A stretch of 13,431 nt of DNA from Tubiluchus corallicola (GCA_030141605.1 JAQGDQ010002141.1:1-13431); one strand, 5' to 3'; shown: positions 1,062 to 13,424, counted from the first letter of the stretch. Notes: a model not told the origin generated them from the sequence alone. A program made the numbers and translations.

Positions 1062-1816
1062 ATAGCAAAGGCCCGGGGAAGAGTTTGTATAAAAAACCAC
1101 GTGTAATCAATAAAACGCGAACGTCCTACACAGTCCTCATTTATAACACAACGCCCGTAACATCCTGCATACCGTTTGTTTAACTAACGCAAACCCGTAG
1201 CAGGCAGCTTTTTGCTGAATTAAAGCTATAAGATTATAGCAGAGTACAATGGATGACGTCACAACAATGCCTTTGCGTCAACTCGCCAATACTCCTCTCG
1301 GTGGACCTGCCCTAACATATAGCCCACACCATCGTGTAGCCCCGTTCTTCCTCTTTGTAAAGAGCCCCATATCTCCTTCCGAGAGTCCCACCGGGCGACG
1401 CTAGAACGTTTTTTCCGCAGGCTGTTTGGTCAAAATTTCGAAAAAATCGCGAGTTGGGTCCGGGAAAACGCCCGTTGCGGGACCCCGTGGTCCTCTCGCG
1501 AATTCTAAATAGGCCTATGACACCCACCGCTGAACGGGCTATCTATTCATACCCAGTACCCCCCTCGGCCCGCTCCCGTTCTCTACATCTCAGCCGTATA
1601 ACTTTTTGCAAAAAACGGCCGAAAAAGGGCCATTTTTGGAGGTTTTTCGCCCCCCCTTCCTTCCGGTGGGCCCGATTCGAAAAATAAACCATCAATGGCA
1701 CGACACTAGATCGAGACCTTTCGTTTGATGTATAGATCGCCGCAAATGGTGCCCTCGTCGAAGCTGTAGCCTCGAATCTTATATATATATATATATACCA
1801 AGAATATTAATATAAG

Positions 1817-1817
<1 letters not shown>
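1062..1817 (-). mobile_element. Non-autonomous Helitron copy 1 (decayed 3' end)
   Basis: Homologous to copies 2-4. The 5' end is A|TCTTATATT at 1817. The 3' end is CTAT instead of CTAG and the hairpin is disrupted (GGGGAAGAGTTTGTA on +). No TSD, no transposase ORF. Confidence 0.8.

Positions 1818-1847
<30 letters not shown>
1818..1847. repeat. (TAA)10 microsatellite between Helitron copies 1 and 2
   Basis: Directly visible. Confidence 0.97.
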
Positions 1848-1848
<1 letters not shown>

Positions 1849-2659
1849 TAGCAAAGGCCCCGCAAAAGATTTTGCGTAAAAAACCACGTATAATCAATAA
1901 CACGCGAACATCCTACACAGTCCTCATGTATAACGCAAAGCCCGTAACATCCTGCCTACTTACCTAACGCAAAACCTGTACTCGTGCCTACTTTATGTTT
2001 AACTAACGCAAAGCAGCTTTTTGCTGAATTAAAGCTATAAGCAATAATGGATGACGTCAGCACAATGGAATTCGTCACAACAGTTTTCTAAGCGAAAATC
2101 GCCGAAAATAGAACAGCTAATTAACTCGTCGGTACTCCTCTCGGTGGACCTGCCCTAAAATATAGCCCACATCATCGTGTAGCCCTGTCCTTCCTGTTTG
2201 TAAAGAGCTATAAATCTCCTCCCGAGAGTCCCACCGGGCGCCGCTAGAACGTTTTTCCCGCAGGCTGTTTGGTCAAAATTTCGAAAAAATCGCGAGTTGG
2301 GTCCGGGAAAACGCCCGTTGCGGGACGCCGTGGCCCTCTCGGGAATTCTAAATATGCCTACTACACCTACCGCTGAACGGGCTATCTATCCATACCCAGC
2401 ACCCCCCTCGGCCCGTTCCCGTTCTCTACATCTCAGCCGTATAACTTTTGCAAAAAACGGCCGAAAAATGGCCATTTTTGGAGGTTTTTCGCCCCCCGTT
2501 CCTCCCGGTGGGCCCGATTCGAAAAATAAACCCCCAATGAGACGACACTAGATCGAGACCTTTCGTTTGATGTATAGATCGCCGCAAATGGTGCCCTCGT
2601 CGGAGCTGTAGCCTCGAATCTTATATATATATATATATACCAAGAATATTAATATATGA
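1848..2659 (-). mobile_element. Non-autonomous Helitron copy 2
   Basis: 5' TC followed by a TA-rich tract; perfect hairpin CGCAAAA-ga-TTTTGCG (1861-1876) 9 nt from the terminal CTAG|T; no TSD. Confidence 0.85.
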
Positions 2660-2660
2660 A

Positions 2661-3480
2661 CTAGCAAAGGCCCCGCAAAAGATTTTGCGTAAAAAACCAC
2701 GTATAATCAATAACACGCGAACATCCTACACAGTCCTCATGTATAACGCAAAGCCCGTAACATCCTGCCTACTTACCTAACGCAAAACCTGTACTCGTGC
2801 CTACTGTACGTTTAACTAACGCAAAGCAGCTTTTTGCTGAATTAAAGCTATAAGCAATAATGGATGACGTCAGCACAATGGAATTCGTCACAACAGTTTT
2901 CTAGGCGAAAATCGCCGAAAATAGAACAGTTAATTAACTCGTCGGTACTCCTCTCGGTGGACCTGCCCTAAAATATAACCCACATCATCGGTAGCCCTGT
3001 CCTTCCTCTTTGTAAAGAGCTATAAATCTCCTCCCGAGAGTCCCACCGGGCGCCGCTAGAACGTTTTTCCCGCAGGCTGTTTGGTCAAAATTTCGAAAAA
3101 ATCGCGAGTTGGGTCCGGGAAAACGCCCGTTGCGGGACGCCGTGGCCCTCTCGGGAATTCTAAATATGCCTACTACACCTACCGCTGAACGGGCTATCTA
3201 TCCATACCCAGCACCCCCCTCGGCCCGTTCCCGTTCTCTACATCTCAGCCGTATAACTTTTGCAATTTTTTGCAAAAAACGGCCGAAAAATGGCCATTTT
3301 GGGGGGGTTTTCGCCCCCCGTTCCTCGCGGTGGGCCCCATTCGAAAAATAAACCCCCAATGAGACGACACTAGATCGAGACCTTTCGTTTGATATATAGA
3401 TCGCCGCAAATGGTGCCGTCGTCTGGGCTGTAGCCTCGAATCTATATATATATATATATACCAAGAATATTAATATATGA
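2661..3480 (-). mobile_element. Non-autonomous Helitron copy 3
   Basis: Same termini as copy 2; head-to-tail junction CTAG-T-TC; period about 813-821 bp. Confidence 0.85.
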
Positions 3481-3481
3481 A

Positions 3482-4277
3482 CTAGCAAAGGCCCCGCAAA
3501 AGATTTTGCGTAAAAAACAACGTATAATCAATAACACGCGAACATCCTACACAGTCCTCATGTATAACGCAAAGCCCGTAACATCCTGCCTACTTACCTA
3601 ACGCAAAACCTGTACTCGTGCCTACTGTACGTTTAACTAACGCAAAGCAGCTTTTTGCTGAATTAAAGCTATAAGCAATAATGGATGACGTCAGCACAAT
3701 GGAATTCGTCACAACAGTTTTCTAAGCGAAAATCGCCGAAAATAGAACAGCTAATTAACTCGTCGGTACTCCTCTCGGTGGACCTGCCCTAAAATATAAC
3801 CCACATCATCGTGTAGCCCTGTCCTTCCTCTTTGTAAAGAGCTATAAATCTCCTCCCGAGAGTCCCACCGGGCGCCGCTAGAACGTTTTTCCCGCAGGCT
3901 GTTTGGTCAAAATTTCGAAAAAATCGCGAGTTGGGTCCGGGAAAACGCCCGTTGCGGGACGCCGTGGCCCTCTCGGGAATTCTAAATATGCCTACTACAC
4001 CTACCGCTGAACGGGCTATCTATCCATACCCAGCACCCCCCTCGGCCCGTTCCCGTTCTCTACATCTCAGCCGTATAACTTTTGCAATTTTTTGCAAAAA
4101 ACGGCCGAAAAACGGCCATTTTGGGAGGTTTTTCGCCCTCGGTTCCTCCCGGTGGGCCCGATTCGAAAAATAAACCATCAATGGCACGACACTAGATCGA
4201 GACCTTTCGTTTGATATATATATCGCCGCAAATGGTGCCCTCGTCCGGGCTGTAACCTCGAATCTTATATATTAAGA
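3482..4277 (-). mobile_element. Non-autonomous Helitron copy 4
   Basis: Same 3' hairpin and CTAG; the 5' end reads A|TCTTAATATATAAGATTCG at 4277, followed on + by a rearranged 33-bp hairpin (4278-4310). Confidence 0.82.
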
Positions 4278-4308
4278 TACCAAGAATCTCTTATATTAAT
4301 ATTCTTGG

Positions 4309-4520
<212 letters not shown>

Positions 4521-5646: not shown

Positions 5647-5707
5647 CTGCTGCTTCGATTCCAAGAACGATGACAATTATAGCAAGTGCGATGATAACTT
5701 TGTTCAT
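5647..5707 (-). CDS. First coding exon with signal peptide/signal anchor MNKVIIALAIIVIVLGIEAA (exon 5730-5647)
   Basis: Acceptor TCTTCTTTGTGCAG| before 5730; ATG with A at -3 (CACAATGA); basic n-region, hydrophobic core and small-residue end; phase-1 donor CAG|GTAGGT. Confidence 0.6.
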
Positions 5708-5828
5708 TGTGATGCCAGAATGTTTGTAACCTGCACAAAGAAGATTTTCATTGAGTATAGACCTGAATGAAAAACAATTACTGCATACACGTATTAATGG
5801 AGTATAGTTAGCTTATATAGAGTCGTAG

Positions 5829-6350
5829 TGTAACTACGGCCATATCACGTTGAAAACACCGGTTCTCGTCTGATCACCGAAGTTACGCAACGTAGAGCCT
5901 CGTTAGTACTTGGATGCGTGACCGCCTAGGAATACCAGGTGCTGTAGGCTTGCGGGATGCCTATGCTGGAGCTGCACAAGCAACCAACGGCTAGAGGGCG
6001 GAGGTCAAGTGACCCAACGGCCATGCGTAGAGGAGTAAACCTTCCAAATCAGGAGTGGAGCCCCGAAGGCCGACCAGTGCAGCATGCTCACTGACTCCAG
6101 CAGCTCCTGCAGCCAACCTGGTGCCAAACGTATCGATCCGCTTTGCTTTGGACTACACCAGGGAGGAAGGGAGGGGGTTCCTGCAGTCTGGGCAACTCAG
6201 GATCTCCATACACCTTACCCAGGCGTGCGCCCTGGAGACGTTCAAGGATCACACTGCTCAGCCACAGTCGACGCTGCAGCTCCATCAATGTGATCAATGA
6301 CTCTCTTGGCGCACACTCCATTGTCTTCGGAGACAGAAGGATGCCAACAC
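5829..6350 (+). mobile_element. 5S rRNA-headed SINE with RTE-like body, copy A
   Basis: TSD AGAGTCGTAG at 5819-5828 and 6351-6360. Structure is TGT + 120-nt 5S head with no oligo-T terminator + about 400-bp body shared with copy B. The 3' part translates RSRITLLSHSRRC and ends in the stem-loop CCATTGTCTTCGGAGACAGAAGGATGCCAAC. Confidence 0.88.
5832..5951 (+). rRNA. 5S rRNA-derived sequence (SINE head; probably not a functional 5S gene)
   Basis: AACTACGGCCATATCACGTTGAAAACACCGGTTCTCGTCTGATCACCGAAGTTACGC...TAGTACTTGGATGCGTGACCGCCTAGGAATACCAGGTGCTGTAGGCTT matches the metazoan 5S consensus over its full length, with substitutions in box A and box C. Confidence 0.92.
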
Positions 6351-6532
6351 AGAGTCGTAGACGTTCCATGTAACAGTGGTCGAAATGTTGGAAACCTCTT
6401 CTCACCCGCCACTCGAGACAATTCTGTAAGTTTTCGGTGCTTCTGAATGTTCCGCCCACGCAAAGCTACCCACCCGCAGGCCAACATTATTGCACATTCC
6501 TTCAACAAATTATACTAGCCCTCTCTGCCAGT

Positions 6533-6711
6533 CTGCCAAGAATTCGTAGAGTGCCAAGGCGCTAAGAACGCCAAGTGGCCAAGACCGCCGAGCTGCCAAG
6601 AATGTCAAGTTGCCAAGAAAACCAAGCTTCCAAGATTGTCACACTGTCAGTAATGTCAAGTTGTTAAGAAAACAAAGTTGCCAAAGAAGCCAAGCAGCTA
6701 AGGAAGCAAAG
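6533..6711. repeat. Degenerate 17-bp minisatellite (consensus near YTGCCAAGAATGCCAAG)
   Basis: Nine in-register 17-mers from 6559 to 6711, each made of two 8-9 bp GCCAAG subunits. Confidence 0.8.
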
Positions 6712-7379
6712 TTTTCACAATCATAAGCGAAAAATTGCCATCTCAATTACAAACCGTTTGTACGTTTAGGATACGGCCTGTACTATTAATGAAACTAAGG
6801 TGGCACGAAATGTGAGTTTGTGAGGTAGTTAACGCAAGTTTAAGCTAAATTTGAACTAGCGATGGATGTACTGCCTAGTACAACATCAGAGGAAGCTGTG
6901 AAAATATTTTAACGTAAACTTACTTGTACGGAAATGAATGAGCTTTCAATCCCCGAGTAGCTACAGAACTCTGCGTACGTTCTAATCTAAAATTAAATGG
7001 TTACAGAATTTAATGGTCCTAAACCTTTTACAAATGCTGCTGAATAAAAAACGCAAAACCTGAATTCACGATCGATTGTGCCACGCCCATGCAAGTCATG
7101 GAATATTAATTATGGGCAACCCTGGATTACTAGGTTCCAAGGTGTTCAGGGAATCAAGAGGCCAATAATAGATGTCACCTTCAAAATTAAAATGGAATAA
7201 ATTATCATGGAGGTCCTGCTCCTCTTCCAGCCAGGTTTGCATTTGAATTTTATTGCTTTGGTTGTAAATCTTCAACATCAGTAGATGACAGGGATATATT
7301 TAAATGCACAAAGATAATGGGATATCGAGTTTGTTCACAATGCTTTACAAACACTCAACACTTTTTTAATTGATTTTTT

Positions 7380-7899
7380 AGACACAGTGTGTTGCTTTAC
7401 AGTCATGGTTGGCATCCTTCTGTCTCGGAAGACAATGGAGTGTGCGCCAAGAGAGACACGGTGTGTTGCTTTACAGTCATGGTTGGCTTCCTTCTGTCTC
7501 GGAAGACAATGGAGTGTGCGCCAAGAGAGACACGGTGTGTTGCTTTACAGTCATGGTTGGCATCCTTCTGTCTCGGAAGACAATGGAGTGTGCGCCAAGA
7601 GAGACACGGTGTGTTGCTTTACAGTCATGGTTGGCTTCCTTCTGTCTCGGATGACAATGGAGTGTGCGCCAAGAGAGGCACGGTGTGTTGCTTTACAGTC
7701 ATGGTTGGCTTCCTTCTGTCTCGGATGACAATGGAGTGTGCGCCAAGAGAGGCACGGTGTGTTGCTTTACAGCCATGGTTGGCTTCCTTCTGTCTCGGAA
7801 GATAATGGAGTGTGCGCAAAGAGAGACACGGTGTGTTGCTTTACAGTCATGGTTGGCATCCTTCTGTCTCGGAAGAAAATGGAGTGTGCGCCAAGAGAG
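7380..7899. repeat. 74-bp tandem array, 7 copies, spanning the 3' junction of SINE copy B
   Basis: Units start at 7387, 7461, 7535, 7609, 7683, 7757 and 7831; each contains flank, the TSD and about 49 bp of SINE tail. Confidence 0.97.
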
Positions 7900-8397
7900 T
7901 CAGTTATTGATCACATTGATGAAGCTGCAGCGTCGACTGTGGCTGAGCAGTCCGATCTTTGAACGTCTCCAGGGCGCACGCCTGGGCAAGGTGTATGGAG
8001 ATCCTGAGTTGCCTAGACAACAGCAACCCCCTCTCTTCCTCTCTGGTGTAGTCCAAAGGAAAGCGGAGTGATACGTTTGACACCAGGTTGGCTGCAGGAG
8101 CTGCTGGAGTCAGTGAGCATGCTGCACTGGTCCGCCTTCGGGGCTCTACTCCTCATTTGGATGGTTTACTCCTCTACACATGACCGTTGGGTCACTTGAC
8201 CTCCTCCGGCCTCTAGCCGTTGGCTGCTTGTACAGCTCCTCGGCCTAGTGTCGAGATACAGTGTGTGCACCTCGAAGCCTACAGCACCTGGTATTCCTAG
8301 GCTGTCACCCATCCAAGTACTAACCAGGCTCTACGTTGCTTAACTTCGGTGATCAGACGAAAACCGGTGTTTTCAACGTGATTTGGCCGTAGTCACA
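7851..8397 (-). mobile_element. 5S rRNA-headed SINE with RTE-like body, copy B
   Basis: TSD TTTACAGTCAT at 7840-7850 and 8398-8408; starts with TGT + 5S; body homologous to copy A; minus strand 7965-7927 translates RSKIGLLSHSRRC. Confidence 0.88.
8275..8394 (-). rRNA. 5S rRNA-derived sequence (SINE head)
   Basis: Reverse complement GACTACGGCCAAATCACGTTGAAAACACCGG...AGTTAAGC...GGATGGGTGAC...GCTGTAGGCTT, 120 nt, with no T-run terminator. Confidence 0.92.
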
Positions 8398-9223
8398 TTT
8401 ACAGTCATAGTTTCAAATCAATTATAAAATAGGTTACGCATAACAAAGTGTGAATTCAGAACGACTATGCTGTGTTTCTCTATGCTATATGTACCTACTA
8501 GAATTCATACGCTAGCTAACTCTGTGGTTATGAAAATTGTTATATTAGAACTTGAACTTACAGCCTGCAATTATAATCACGAGAGAAACGTTAATCTGAT
8601 CACATCTTGACTTAGCAATAATCAATAACTCGTTTTTAAAGCTTCTAATCACAAAAGAATGAAGCCACCGCTAAACGCTTTCTATAGAGGCAAAAGCAGA
8701 AACCAGACAATCGTTCCCAGCTTTTAAATCGCGAGTGAAGAGCATACTCAACCAGGCATATTCAGATGAAATCTTCAGCGATGACAATGTGTTTTGCCGC
8801 TTAGCCGATTTATTCATTGACTGTCTGGGGGAGACAAAAACATAAAAAAGTTTGCAACAACTTACAACGAACGAAGTCTGAAACCATAAAATCGCAATTA
8901 TATACTAAAAACACTAATTATAAAAACATGAACTTACAATTTACAAAATTAAGAAAATAAACTAGTTAAAATACTTACACAAATTACATAGATTAAAAGT
9001 ACGTTAAAGTTCTATTCTATTGGCTAAAATTTTTAAGCATGAAAAACATCACTACTGTAAATTGCTTGTTTTAGGAAACCATTAGAAGAATTTAAAACAC
9101 GACACGACTTCTAAAATTATGTACATTTAGGCTAAATAACTTTAAAATGAGTAATATCATTTTCGACATTATATGAGTACTTTTGGTGCTCCTGGATATT
9201 CGACCAAGCTAAACACTCTTTAA

Positions 9224-9683: not shown

Positions 9684-10113
9684 TTAATACCTTAACACTA
9701 ACCACCAACCTAAGTAATAAAATTCTTTGCTGCGATTTTTAAAATGAAATAATTTAAATCGCAAGAAATGCTTTTTTAATTCGAGGCACTTAAGATGAAC
9801 ATTTAATAACAACGTCTTTGCTGCAGGCCTGCATTAAAATCATTCCATTAAAAATCAGTAAGCGTTTTACAACAACACATAGCACATTAAAAATCTATTT
9901 TAGACAAGTTGATAAACCTGTATACGTTACTGTCATTACGGACAACTGCAAGGACACCAGTAGCAGTCTAAGGTACTTGATAAGTAATTAAGTTTGAATC
10001 TCAACTGTTGCCAAAATTACGTTATTAAAGCAAAATCGGACACAAACTTAAACTTAGATGACGCCAGAATGCGACTAAGTCTTAGAAATTTTGTTCAATT
10101 AGGACTCTTCCTC

Positions 10114-10190
10114 GTCACCACTTGTGTCTAGTGTTCATGGTACTGAACTTGTAATCTAAAAGTTCCTGGTTCAATTCTAATGCTTGCCCA
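10114..10190 (+). pseudogene. tRNA-derived sequence (TGT anticodon, Thr-like), degenerate
   Basis: A-box-like TGTCTAGTGTT, anticodon loop CTTGTAA and B-box-like GGTTCAATTC at tRNA spacing; stems are broken. Confidence 0.55.
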
Positions 10191-10356
10191 TTTGTTATTT
10201 TCAGGCATGTTTTGTTGAAAAATCAATTATTGTAGGTCATATCATTTTCAGTCTTGTTAATACAAAAGCTATCCGTAGATAGCGCTAGCATGCGAGTAAG
10301 TCATAGAAATTTTGTCTTGGTGATTGAACGAATAAAGTTCAATAAAGACTCTTCCT

Positions 10357-10434
10357 GGTCACCACTTGTGCCTAGTGTTCAAGGTACTGAACTTGTAATC
10401 TAAAGGTTCCTGGTTCAATTTTAATGCTTGCACA
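10357..10434 (+). pseudogene. tRNA-derived sequence, second copy
   Basis: D-arm GTGCCT/AGGTAC pairs, CTTGTAA loop and GGTTCAATT box are present; T-stem and acceptor stem are broken. Confidence 0.55.
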
Positions 10435-10705
10435 TTTGTTATTTTCAGGTATTTTTATGTTTAAAAATCAATAATTATAGGTCATATCATGTTCAGTCTT
10501 TTTAATACAAAAGCTGTCCGTAGATGGCGCTAGCATGCGACAAAGTCTTGGTGGTATAGGATCTTCATTATTTTTTTTATTTTATTTTTTACAACTTTAT
10601 TCTTTCTTCTTTTTTTAATCTCCAGAAATGAAAAAATGTTCATATTATTGTTAAACGATGTTTCAAATTATTATAATATTAATAAAGCCAATATGACTGT
10701 GAGCT

Positions 10706-13424
10706 ATGGCGATGTTACAATGTAAGACATGTAATAATCGTTACGGCTTGCTAAATTTTGTCCAACAACTTTAAAAATTTGATTCTTCTGATTTTTTAAA
10801 TCCATAGGTCATTTTCGAACATCGCGTAATCAATTATTTGACTAAATAATGGAAACGTATAATTCCATAATTCATTTCTATTTGTCGAGAAGTTTCTGAA
10901 ACTTAACGAAATTTTTTGAATACAATAACTTCTCATTCAACTTAATGTTAACCTTGCTATTGGTTTTACTGCTTCATATTAGCCTGTATTATTCTGGTTT
11001 TGCACAGCTGTTAAGTACTATACTATAAAATAAAATTCTGACCTTGTACTTCGTCATTTCCTTGCTATCAGTGCTCTTAACCACCTGTCTATTAATATCT
11101 TGTAAATTGCTAAAATCTCGTGGAAATCATGATTTTTTTTCTCTTACTGTGTTTGTATTAAACTTAATAGTTTTGGTTGTGCAGTAGAAGTGAATGAATT
11201 TGTCGTTATTATTGTGGTCGCCACATTTTACATGATTTTTGAGTTGTTTGGTAATGAATATTTTTTATGTTCATGATTAAGTACTGCAGAACAGAAAGAC
11301 AGACAAATGCAATTATAATAAAAACACTAAAATGTAAGAGTTATGCATATTTTACAAACAGAATACAAAGCTCTTTTAATTACAGCAGTTCTTACTAAAT
11401 AATGTAATATGGTCATTTAGTTTTTCATTTGATCAAATTAACATTCATTTTTTCTGTCTGGGCGTTAAAATTAAAACGAAATTGAAGTTTTCGATACCAT
11501 CCATCGTATGAAAAGTTTAATCTGTGGGCAAAATACTTGACTTCATTAACAACTGGTGATAAGGTCATCGTTATTTGAATAAATATATACATTAAACAAT
11601 TATATACAGTTAACAAAGGCAAAAAAATGACAAAAATATCAAATTCCGTTTTCGAAGAACAGGTGTGCGCTCGGGTTGTACATTGCCCTCCATTTTGCCA
11701 GTCTGTAACACAATTTGAAACACAACATTGATGGTGTTGTACATATTAATGCATATGTTGTTAATATTATGCATTGTAATAAATTATTATGATAAAAATT
11801 TTAAATGAAACGTACATATACTTTTCATCCTTTAGATCTTGGAACACGTACTTGTATATTGCTCGATCGTCAAGCCAAAAGTTTTGCTTCTTTGGCCGTC
11901 CATGCACAGCACTTAGAGTCTCAATAGCTTTGTTTAAAATGAAAAGAAAAAAACTATTCACGAAGATGTGTATGAACCTATCTTAACACAATAATTTATT
12001 TAATTACTCATTCGTTTATTCACTGCCACACACATCAAACACAAACGCAAAAAAGAGGTTGCAATTACACAAGAACATCATAAAACCATACAAGACAGTA
12101 TTTTTGACGGACATGTATAAGATGTGTGTGGCAGTGAATAAACGAATGAGTAATTAAATAAATTATTGTGTTAAGATAGGTTCATACACATCTTCGTGAA
12201 TAGTTTTTTTCTTTTCATTTTAAACAAAGCTATTGAGACTCTAAGTGCTGTGCATGGACGGCCAAAGAAGCAAAACTTTTGGCTTGACGATCGAGCAATA
12301 TACAAGTACGTGTTCCAAGATCTGAAGGATGAAAAGTATATGTACGTTTCATTTAAAATTTTTATCATAATAATTTATTACAATGCATAATATTAACAAC
12401 ATATGCATTAATATGTACAACACCATCAATGTTGTGTTTCAAATTGTGTTACAGACTGGCAAAATGGAGGGCAATGTACAACCCGAGCGCACACCTGTTC
12501 TTCGAAAACGGAATTTGATATTTTTTGTCATTTTTTTGCCTTTGTTAACTGTATATAATTTGTTAATGTATATATTTATTCAAATAACAATGACATTATT
12601 ACCAGTTAATCAAGTCAAGTATTTTGTCCAGATATTGCACTTTTCGTACGATGGATGATATCGAAAACTTTAATTTCGTTTTAATTTTAACCAGACAGAA
12701 AAAATGAATGTTAATTTGACCATATTACATTATTTAGTAACAACTGCTGTAATTAAAAGAGCTTTGTATTCTGTTTGTAAAATATGCATAACTCTTACAT
12801 TTTAGTGTTTTGATTATAATTGCATTTGTCTGTCTTTCTGTTCTGCAGTACTTAATCATGAACATAAAAAATATTCATTACCAAACAACTCAAAAATCAT
12901 GTAAAATGTGGCCACCACAATAATAACGACAAATTCATTCACTTCTACTGCACAACCAAAACTATTAAGTTTAATACAAACACAGTAAGAGAAAAAATCA
13001 TGATTTCCACGAGATTTTAGCAATTTACAAGATATTAATAGACAGGTGGTTAAGAGCACTGATAGCAAGGAAATGACCAAGTACAAGGTCAGAATTTTAT
13101 TTTATAGTATAGTACTTAACAGCTGTGCAAAACCAGAATAATACAGGCTAATATGAAGCAGTAAAACCAATAGCAAGGTTAACATTAAGTTGAATGAGAA
13201 GTTATTGTATTCAAAAAATTTCGTTAAGTTTCAGAAACTTCTCGACAAATAGAAATGAATTATGGAATTATACGTTTTCATTATTTAGTCAAATAATTGA
13301 ATACGCGATGTTCGGAAATGACCTATGGATTTAAAAAATTAGAAGAATCAAATTTTTAAAGTTGTTGGACAAAATTTAGCAAGCCGTAACGATTATTACA
13401 TGTCTTACATTGTAACATCGCCAT
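10706..13424. repeat. Long inverted repeat / foldback: arms 10706-12036 and 12121-13424, 84-bp spacer
   Basis: The arms are reverse complements, shown by mirrored identical ORFs (11767-11961/12196-12390 and 11789-11986/12171-12368). There are a few indels, the largest being 20 bp missing from the right arm. Confidence 0.97.

What the first reader, a model, noticed from the sequence alone, without database searches (positions are those of the whole stretch)
5829..8397. 5S rRNA-headed SINE family with a two-part RTE-like body
Seen: two copies with the same layout (TGT + full 5S + about 290-bp GC-rich segment + about 110-bp tail), each with its own TSD (10 and 11 bp). Both heads carry CCTAGGAAT where 5S normally has CCTGGGAAT, pointing to a common master copy. 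Known: 5S carries an internal type-1 Pol III promoter; from recall, RTE-clade ORFs end in an SRIGLxSHxRxC-like motif followed by a short stem-loop tail, and some SINEs join the 5' UTR and 3' end of an RTE LINE. Inference: the join near 6238/6239 (CCCTGGAGA|CGTTCAAGG) fuses an RTE 5' UTR to its 3' end. 5S-headed SINEs are uncommon, so this may be an undescribed invertebrate family mobilised by an RTE partner.
Basis: partly seen in the sequence, partly recalled or inferred. Interest (0 to 1): 0.8.

Follow-up and report, generated by a model that had tools for sequence, protein, structure and literature searches.

The report
5S-headed SINE with both RTE ends
This is a short repeat, dispersed at high copy number in an animal genome, made of a whole 5S ribosomal RNA gene fused to the front and back pieces of a retrotransposon whose enzyme likely copies it; the design is already known from coelacanth, python and moth, and this family likely arose separately.

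Summary
Confirmed. Two 93%-identical copies (5829-6350 +, 7851-8397 -) each carry a complete 5S head (Rfam 92 and 101 bits) and their own 10/11-bp target-site duplication. Segment 6012-6238 is 72-74% identical to the 5' UTR of an RTE-type LINE (L002/L005). Segment 6239-6300 encodes the last residues of such an ORF (best hit in the last 30 aa of 74 of 77 full-length relatives), followed by a short 3' UTR. In three public runs the element lies about 1000-fold or more deeper than its flanks, with mixed flanks (dispersed, not an rDNA array) and CpG decay. A subfamily keeps 13 more 5'-UTR bases at the join, and one contig continues from the join into LINE ORF. Both target sites fit the RTE Tn-TA signature. 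Not shown: Pol III transcription, a full-length partner, the host, that the head's A97 is diagnostic, or that TGT is family-wide. The 5S + RTE-5' + RTE-3' design is published (CoeSINE5, SINE-1_Pmo, HaSE3); those sequences look unrelated, so this is probably an independent new member. Dfam/Repbase could not be searched. The scan noted two other 5S-headed LINE-end SINEs in other genomes.

The parts
5819..5828 (+). Copy 1, left target-site duplication (10 bp; starts with A after T)
5829..5831 (+). Copy 1, TGT leader before 5S +1 (shared by both window copies, not shown family-wide)
5832..5950 (+). Copy 1, full-length 5S rRNA head. It carries changes in box A (5886), IE (5901) and box C (5917), where the population majority has the copy-2 letter
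   Evidence: Rfam RF00001 92 bits
5951..6011 (+). Copy 1, unassigned linker (about 20 bp shorter than in copy 2 and many other copies); possibly more LINE 5' UTR, no match found
6012..6238 (+). Copy 1, internal fragment of an RTE-type LINE 5' UTR
   Evidence: 160/221 and 163/220 identical to L005/L002, 0 of 200 shuffles reach the score; still so without the search pattern
6239..6300 (+). Copy 1, last codons of the LINE ORF (reads RSRITLLSHSRRC; a 4-bp loss puts the stop out of frame)
6301..6350 (+). Copy 1, LINE-type 3' UTR with predicted stem-loop and a very short CAA/CA tail
   Evidence: fold -13 kcal/mol but z only -1.35; population tail begins ACAACAA
6351..6360 (+). Copy 1, right target-site duplication
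8398..8408 (-). Copy 2, 5' target-site duplication (11 bp; starts with A after T)
8395..8397 (-). Copy 2, TGT leader
8276..8394 (-). Copy 2, full-length 5S head with the majority letters at the three box A/IE/C sites that differ in copy 1; its own changes include a C-box change (+92) and a T4 run at 8363
   Evidence: Rfam 101.1 bits
8193..8275 (-). Copy 2, unassigned linker
7966..8192 (-). Copy 2, RTE-type 5' UTR fragment
   Evidence: 160/223 and 163/222 identical to L005/L002
7900..7965 (-). Copy 2, LINE ORF end with in-frame stop (reads RSKIGLLSHSRRCSFINVINN*)
7851..7899 (-). Copy 2, 3' UTR and tail
7840..7850 (-). Copy 2, 3' target-site duplication
7380..7899 (-). 74-bp x7 minisatellite made of the last 47 bases of copy 2 + its TSD + 16 bases of flank; formed after insertion (inferred)
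   Evidence: TRF 96% matches, score 956; unit dissection

Best explanation
The two copies belong to a dispersed, high-copy 5S-headed SINE (SINE3 type) whose body is an internally deleted RTE-type LINE (a 5' UTR fragment joined to the ORF end and 3' UTR), likely transcribed by RNA polymerase III from the 5S internal promoter and likely reverse-transcribed into new sites by the protein of an autonomous RTE partner. Shown: the head, the two LINE-derived parts and their join, the TSDs, dispersal and abundance, CpG decay. Inferred: an RTE LINE first lost its middle; a template switch or recombination then put a 5S RNA in front; source copies are read by Pol III through the body, which has no T4 run in copy 1, to a T run in the flank; the RTE protein binds the 3' stem-loop/CAA tail (perhaps also the 5' UTR piece), nicks at T|A about one helical turn from a T run and primes reverse transcription, which leaves 10-11 bp TSDs. 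Neither window copy is likely a source copy: copy 1 has changes in boxes A, IE and C; copy 2 has two internal T4 runs.
For: Full 5S heads. Separate perfect TSDs. 5' UTR homology, 0 of 200 shuffles reaching the score, also without the 21-base search pattern; the matched piece ends 313 bases before an APE endonuclease start in L002/L005. Relatives of that ORF are single APE+RT ORFs of about 1000-1400 aa (77 of 120 listed are 1000 aa or more). The SINE peptide's best local hit falls in their last 30 aa in 74 of 77, against 0 and 5 of 77 for the other two frames. Summed contig depth over the element is 0.6-2.2 million against about 500-1150 on the flanks in X1, and 43,000-222,000 against 22-49 in X2; loose ends at 5833 and 6349 agree only 0.41-0.48. 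At the join, 29/12/12 contigs (X1/X2/X4) carry 13 more bases, 10 of which equal L005's next 5'-UTR bases, and one X4 contig runs on upstream in a frame that reads CATCSRNCR before the SINE's peptide (my hand translation). Both TSDs begin T|A with TT or TTT 7-11 bases upstream, the Tn-TA signature of RTE/Bov-B elements (PMC13295347 section 3.2); joint background chance about 0.002-0.01. 9 of 11 minority transitions lie at CpG, which are 12 of 74 C/G sites.
Against: No transcript or Pol III evidence was obtained. No full-length partner LINE from this host was recovered: a C-terminal protein search gave 6 hits among 8 candidates, none ending like the SINE. The 5'-UTR evidence rests on one LINE family from another organism (L002 and L005 are 1324/1369 identical); 4 of the 6 pattern hits (L001, L003, L004, L006) matched only the pattern. 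The ORF-side continuation is a single contig in X4, a different sample. The 3' stem-loop is not more stable than shuffles (z -1.35 and -0.39), and no LINE 3' UTR DNA was available to compare. RTE clade membership was judged from ORF layout and recalled hallmarks, not from an RT tree with named references. Summed contig depth is no copy number. 5951-6011 is unassigned.
Confidence: 0.9

Rival explanations
1. A bipartite non-autonomous RTE element driven by Pol II (from the retained 5' UTR piece or by read-through), with the 5S head as a passenger rather than the promoter.
For: About 230 bp of LINE 5' UTR is kept, more than the 50-90 bp in CoeSINE5 or HaSE3 (Table 1 of PMC5786205). 5S promoters are said to depend on upstream signals that a retroposed copy loses (passage in PMC8010984).
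Against: The population majority keeps the copy-2 letters in boxes A, IE and C. The 5S terminator is replaced and copy 1 has no T4 until 6431. The piece starts 325 bases into L005, so the LINE's more 5' UTR is absent. Depth over the head is about as high as over the body.
Confidence: 0.06
2. One-off chimeric retrocopies, each made by an RTE reverse transcriptase switching from its own RNA to 5S rRNA, not a self-propagating family.
For: The family has several junction variants (13 extra bases; a 48-bp internal deletion; 3'-end duplications) and a ragged 5' start.
Against: Both window copies and the bulk of contigs share the same two joins, with depth continuous across them. Independent switches would not hit the same bases repeatedly.
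Confidence: 0.02
3. Dispersed or tandem functional 5S rRNA genes, with the body as spacer.
For: The head is complete and copy 2 folds like 5S (z -2.0).
Against: No T-run terminator after the head; unique TSDs; flanks differ between copies (loose-end agreement 0.41-0.48); the body is LINE-derived; copies decay at CpG and are mostly 90-99% alike rather than homogenised.
Confidence: 0.01

Closest known systems
CoeSINE5 (coelacanth; Kojima 2018, PMC5786205, text and supplement passages read)
   Same: Labelled 5S - RTE5' - RTE3'; ends in CAA repeats.
   Different: 225 bp, with a head matching only 5S positions 18-89 and RTE pieces of about 50 bp; by eye no sequence likeness in the body. Here a complete 119-base head, about 230 bp of 5' UTR and the ORF's last 21 codons.
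SINE-1_Pmo (python; PMC5786205)
   Same: SINE3 with RTE 5' and 3' UTR pieces.
   Different: Bov-B/BovA2-related body, T-rich tail, 241 bp; unrelated sequence by eye.
HaSE3 (moth Helicoverpa; PMC5786205) and lepidopteran SINE3s (PMC8010984, PMC10886601 passages)
   Same: Invertebrate 5S-headed SINE with RTE 5' and 3' pieces, at thousands of copies for PxSE4/5.
   Different: Heads are degraded (about 63% to 5S for PxSE4/5; conserved mainly in the promoter boxes), and there is an extra body of unknown origin; unrelated sequence by eye.
Ped-1 (springhare; named as bipartite in PMC5786205; its 5S head and Bov-B partner are recalled, Gogolevsky 2008 not read)
   Same: 5S head on a bipartite RTE-clade body.
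   Different: Mammalian, Bov-B lineage; sequence not compared.
RTE-type LINE family in L002/L005 and relatives P0001-P0120
   Same: 5' UTR 72-74% identical over about 225 bp; the same C-terminal CxxC...SRIGLxSHxRxC-type motif (a looser form in 73 of 77).
   Different: From another organism; it is a relative of the partner, not the partner.

Membership tests
SINE3 (5S rRNA-derived SINE) | 5' head derived from 5S rRNA | tested here: met
   Rfam RF00001, 92 and 101 bits, positions 1-120
SINE3 (5S rRNA-derived SINE) | Type-1 promoter boxes A (+50-64), IE (+67-72), C (+80-97) retained | tested here: met
   Positions from a PMC6204057 passage; boxes read; the population majority has the copy-2 letter at all three box changes of copy 1
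SINE3 (5S rRNA-derived SINE) | Dispersed, multi-copy, flanked by TSDs, non-coding, under about 600 bp | tested here: met
   TSDs; depth step and mixed flanks in 3 of 4 runs laid
SINE3 (5S rRNA-derived SINE) | Transcribed by RNA polymerase III | not testable with these tools
   No RNA holder listed; only the absence of internal T4 in copy 1
Bipartite RTE-derived SINE (Kojima 2018) | Middle part homologous to an RTE 5' UTR, often an internal piece | tested here: met
   6012-6238 against L002/L005; 13-base extension in a subfamily
Bipartite RTE-derived SINE (Kojima 2018) | 3' part homologous to the extreme 3' end of an RTE | tested here: met
   ORF end met at protein level, 74 of 77, plus one contig continuing into ORF; the 3' UTR DNA itself could not be compared
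Bipartite RTE-derived SINE (Kojima 2018) | Both parts match one full-length LINE in the same genome | tested here: inconclusive
   No host assembly held; only 28 letters of the host ORF seen in X4; C-terminal search did not recover the partner
RTE clade (partner) | Single ORF with APE endonuclease and RT | tested here: met
   PF03372/PF14529 on L005; relatives carry PF00078 with APE
RTE clade (partner) | RT-domain phylogeny groups with named RTE elements | not tested
   No named RTE reference was available; PDB hits were only L1, R2 and a group II intron RT
RTE clade (partner) | Tn-TA insertion signature with (CAA)n tail | tested here: met
   2 of 2 window copies against PMC13295347; n is small
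An already named family (Repbase/Dfam/SINEBase) | Sequence identity to a library consensus | not testable with these tools
   No such library here. In two supplements, eight body motifs were absent from Kojima 2018 and three head or body motifs from Kojima 2024; line breaks can hide short words
5S rDNA array | Tandem units with T-run terminator and uniform spacer | tested here: not met

The most novel reading that the evidence does not exclude
An undescribed, independently born SINE3 in a non-insect invertebrate that keeps a complete, foldable 5S RNA because the fold is used: bound by TFIIIA/L5 as a 5S RNP, it would be carried to ribosomes and capture nascent RTE protein, as Alu does through SRP9/14, while its unusually long RTE 5' UTR piece serves as a second binding site for that protein.
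Probability: 0.12. Interest if true: 0.7.

Novelty: new member of a known kind. Interest (0 to 1): 0.36.

Why it matters
It adds a probably independent origin of the 5S + bipartite-RTE design, this time apparently young: full head, copies mostly 90-99% alike to copy 1, and junction subfamilies still visible. That makes it a usable system for an open question raised by Kojima 2018, namely why RTE-dependent SINEs keep an internal piece of the 5' UTR, and for how 5S promoters work without their upstream flank. It also matters for annotation: a large number of such heads will be miscalled as 5S genes in this genome, and the copies are ready presence/absence markers. It does not reveal a new kind of element.

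Tried and rejected
No whole genome is held. Pattern scans of viral contigs for the 5'-UTR end and for the tail: 0 hits each. Related-locus scan with alignment A2: 0 of 43 candidate stretches confirmed in viral contigs; 16 of 37 in genome contigs, none giving a 3' UTR like the tail (the 3' ends of 7 of the 16 were read, all 16 were BLASTed). Of 6 metagenome hits, L004 was read and has no LINE ORF after the match; L001, L003 and L006 matched only the pattern by BLAST and were dropped. The lenient local alignment ran past 6238 into the tail; tested alone, 6239-6350 does not match L002/L005 (135-170 of 200 shuffles as good), so that extension is noise. 5951-6011 gave no match. Rfam found nothing, no ribozyme either, in L002/L005. 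No RNA holder was listed, and run X6 laid nothing: no evidence either way on expression. A C-terminal protein search did not find the host's partner; cluster look-ups gave only 'uncharacterized' or 'hypothetical' names. Host taxon not established: a text search for a head motif found 0 papers, the Donax 5S supplement was unreadable, and one 5S survey paper is not held. My impression that the head is mollusc- or annelid-like is recall only. The search for SRIGL returned only irrelevant papers. Nine paper searches showed no description of this family, but Repbase Reports, Dfam, SINEBase and most subscription papers are outside the library, and bioRxiv supplements are closed. The scan's own index had no look-alike sequence.

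Full report
Observation. The window holds two copies of one element in convergent orientation, 5829-6350 (+) and 8397-7851 (-), 482 of 519 aligned bases identical. Each begins with TGT and a complete 5S rRNA (Rfam RF00001: 92.0 and 101.1 bits, model 1-120; the only other Rfam hit in the window had E 0.52). Each has its own perfect TSD: 10 bp at 5819-5828/6351-6360 and 11 bp at 8398-8408/7840-7850. A 10-base match between comparable random windows arose in 71 of 20000 draws. The element is 51-59% GC in a 31-32% GC background. No genome is held for this window.

The middle part. A 21-base pattern from the end of the middle segment gave 6 metagenome loci. Two of them, L002 and L005, matched well beyond the pattern; the other four matched only the pattern and were dropped. 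L002 and L005 are one LINE family (1324 of 1369 identical). Window 6012-6238 aligns to them at 163/220 and 160/221, scores 126 and 118 against shuffle maxima of 39-41, 0 of 200. Leaving out the pattern gives 143/198 and 139/197, still 0 of 200. The matched piece ends 313 bases before a reading frame for an APE endonuclease (PF03372, PF14529), and begins 325 bases into L005, so it is an internal piece of the 5' UTR. The first 61 bases after the head (5951-6011; 83 in copy 2) match nothing in these loci.

The 3' part. From the join, copy 2 reads RSKIGLLSHSRRCSFINVINN* and copy 1 RSRITLLSHSRRC, with a 4-bp loss that shifts the stop. The L005 ORF found 1687 longer relatives; 120 were listed, and 77 of these are 1000 aa or more, with APE and RT domains. 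In 74 of the 77 the best local hit of the 15-residue SINE peptide lies in the last 30 residues; for the other two frames the counts are 0 and 5 of 77. So the SINE keeps the end of a zinc-finger-like C-terminal motif, the stop and a 3' UTR of about 50 bases. That UTR folds into a stem-loop with an inner hairpin, but not more stably than shuffles (z -1.35 and -0.39). No LINE 3' UTR DNA was found to compare. That this ORF type is the RTE clade rests on the single APE+RT ORF layout, the 'craniofacial development protein 2-like' labels (CFDP2's endonuclease is Bov-B-derived, recalled) and the recalled C-terminal motif; no RT tree with named references was made (one search gave only L1, R2 and a group II intron RT).

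The family in public runs. Six runs were listed, four holding part of the stretch, from 2 studies; the best may be the window's own sample. On 5700-6500, 13931, 8849 and 1381 contigs were laid from X1, X2 and X4, and none from X6. Summed depth steps from about 500-1150 to 0.6-2.2 million in X1, from 22-49 to 43,000-222,000 in X2, and from 0-30 to 22,000-152,000 in X4, across 5835-6347. The tool warns that this is no copy number; thousands of copies is my rough reading. Loose ends at 5833/5834 and 6349 are long (median 228-255 letters) with agreement 0.41-0.48, so the flanks are many and different; the X2 3' consensus begins ACAACAA. This excludes a tandem rDNA array. Most X1 contigs are 90-99% alike to copy 1 (10827 of 13931). 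In the junction lay, 9 of 11 minority transitions fall on CpG, which make up 12 of 74 C/G sites: the decay pattern of methylated, independently ageing copies. Some contigs end at the left TSD (5828) or begin at the right one (6351) without SINE sequence, as empty sites or paralogous flanks would; this is a hint only (table 8).

The join. Laying contigs on 7900-8035 showed loose ends exactly at 7964/7966. In 29, 12 and 12 contigs (X1, X2, X4) thirteen more bases stand between the two parts; 10 of the 13 equal the next bases of the L005 5' UTR (compared by hand). One X4 contig leaves at 7962; its 28 loose letters, reverse-complemented and translated by hand, read CATCSRNCR in the frame that continues into the SINE's peptide. 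That completes the CxxC..C motif seen in 73 of 77 relatives and is likely the partner LINE or a close relative. It is one contig from a different sample. A protein search on the C-terminus of P0120 did not recover the partner (6 hits of 8 candidates). Other variants exist: a 48-bp deletion in the ORF piece, and several 3'-end duplications.

Promoter and targets. With box positions from a passage of PMC6204057, copy 1 has changes in box A, IE and box C (5886, 5901, 5917), and at all three more than 97% of laid depth has the copy-2 letter. The 5S terminator is gone; copy 1 has no T4 until 6431, copy 2 has two (8363, 7879). The source lineage therefore looks Pol III-competent, while both window copies look inactive. 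A97 is shared by both heads and no G variant is among the 40 rows shown (19 hidden). The host's 5S gene was not seen, so A97 is not shown to be diagnostic. Both TSDs start with A after T and have TT or TTT 7-11 bases upstream, matching the Tn-TA signature of Bov-B/RTE elements with (CAA)n tails (PMC13295347, passages and section 3.2); joint background chance is about 0.002-0.01. TSDs of 10-12 bp are reported for the RTE element SR3 (PMC1291365 passages).

Mechanism. Shown: anatomy, TSDs, dispersal, LINE origin of both parts. Inferred, following the model in Kojima 2018 (PMC5786205; parts 1-4 of 5 read): internal deletion of an RTE, capture of a 5S head by template switch, Pol III transcription, then target-primed reverse transcription by the RTE protein. 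Kojima suggests that such SINEs lack the extreme 5' end because a ribozyme there would cut off the head; the piece kept here is internal, which fits, though Rfam found no ribozyme in L002/L005. The 74-bp array at 7380-7899 is the tail's last 47 bases, the TSD and 16 flank bases. Because it contains flank, it arose after insertion, likely by slippage on a short TCT homology; an assembly artefact was not excluded.

Comparison with what is known. Kojima 2018 lists CoeSINE5 and SINE-1_Pmo as 5S - RTE5' - RTE3' and HaSE3 as 5S - unknown - RTE5' - RTE3'. Kojima 2020 says some bipartite RTE SINEs carry 5S heads (PMC7245038 passages), and Kojima 2024 that SINE3 arose repeatedly (PMC10886601 passages). 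Their printed sequences look unrelated to this body by eye, and motif searches of two supplements were blank for the element's words. What differs here is a complete head (CoeSINE5 matches 5S 18-89; PxSE4/5 are about 63% alike), a longer 5'-UTR piece and retained ORF codons. Passages from three mollusc surveys described no such family (PMC4758252, PMC11203168, PMC11481361). Nine searches found no description (listed under Tried and rejected), but Repbase and Dfam could not be searched, so 'undescribed' is about 60% in my judgement. The host is unidentified. The scan's notes hold two analogous elements in other genomes and no sequence look-alike; I did not test them.

Verdict. Real, correctly read by the first stage, a new member of a known kind; interest 0.36.

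Noticed in passing
window 5647-5730 (- strand): Candidate exon bounded by a pyrimidine-rich AG and GTAGGT, encoding a 20-residue signal-peptide-like start (MNKVIIALAIIVIVLGIEAA). If real, both SINE copies lie upstream of it, copy 1 about 100 bases from the acceptor, possibly in a 5'-UTR intron.
   Followed up: partly
window 5829-6350 and 7851-8397: The two copies are inverted and 1.5 kb apart, so a transcript across them could form a duplex of about 500 bp at 93% identity (a possible editing or siRNA substrate; speculation).
   Followed up: no
window 1067-4303: Four tandem units of about 820 bp, 85-100% alike, with (TA)n at one end and, on the - strand, a short hairpin followed by CTAG-T at the other; looks like a non-autonomous Helitron array (recalled resemblance).
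   Followed up: partly
window 10706-13424: A large inverted repeat with arms of about 1.3 kb, 90-99% complementary, 70 bases apart at the centre: a foldback element, a recent inverted duplication or an assembly artefact.
   Followed up: no
window 6351-6500 and 6553-6641: The 3' flank of copy 1 is itself covered by several contigs about 90% alike and holds a 17-bp GCCAAG-rich repeat; copy 1 may have inserted into another repeat.
   Followed up: partly
window 10093-10547; 145-914; 2-104 and 4310-4520: A 244-bp tandem duplication, a degenerate CACAC minisatellite, and (ATA)n/(ATG)n microsatellites.
   Followed up: no
runs X1/X2, joints 6346-6349 back to 6253 and 6328 back to 6267: Other copies also show duplicated 3' ends, so tail duplication recurs in this family.
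   Followed up: no
L007-L022: Sixteen contigs in prokaryote genome assemblies encode LINE-like RT/APE proteins (L007 and L008 at 75-85% to P0120), likely eukaryotic contamination.
   Followed up: partly
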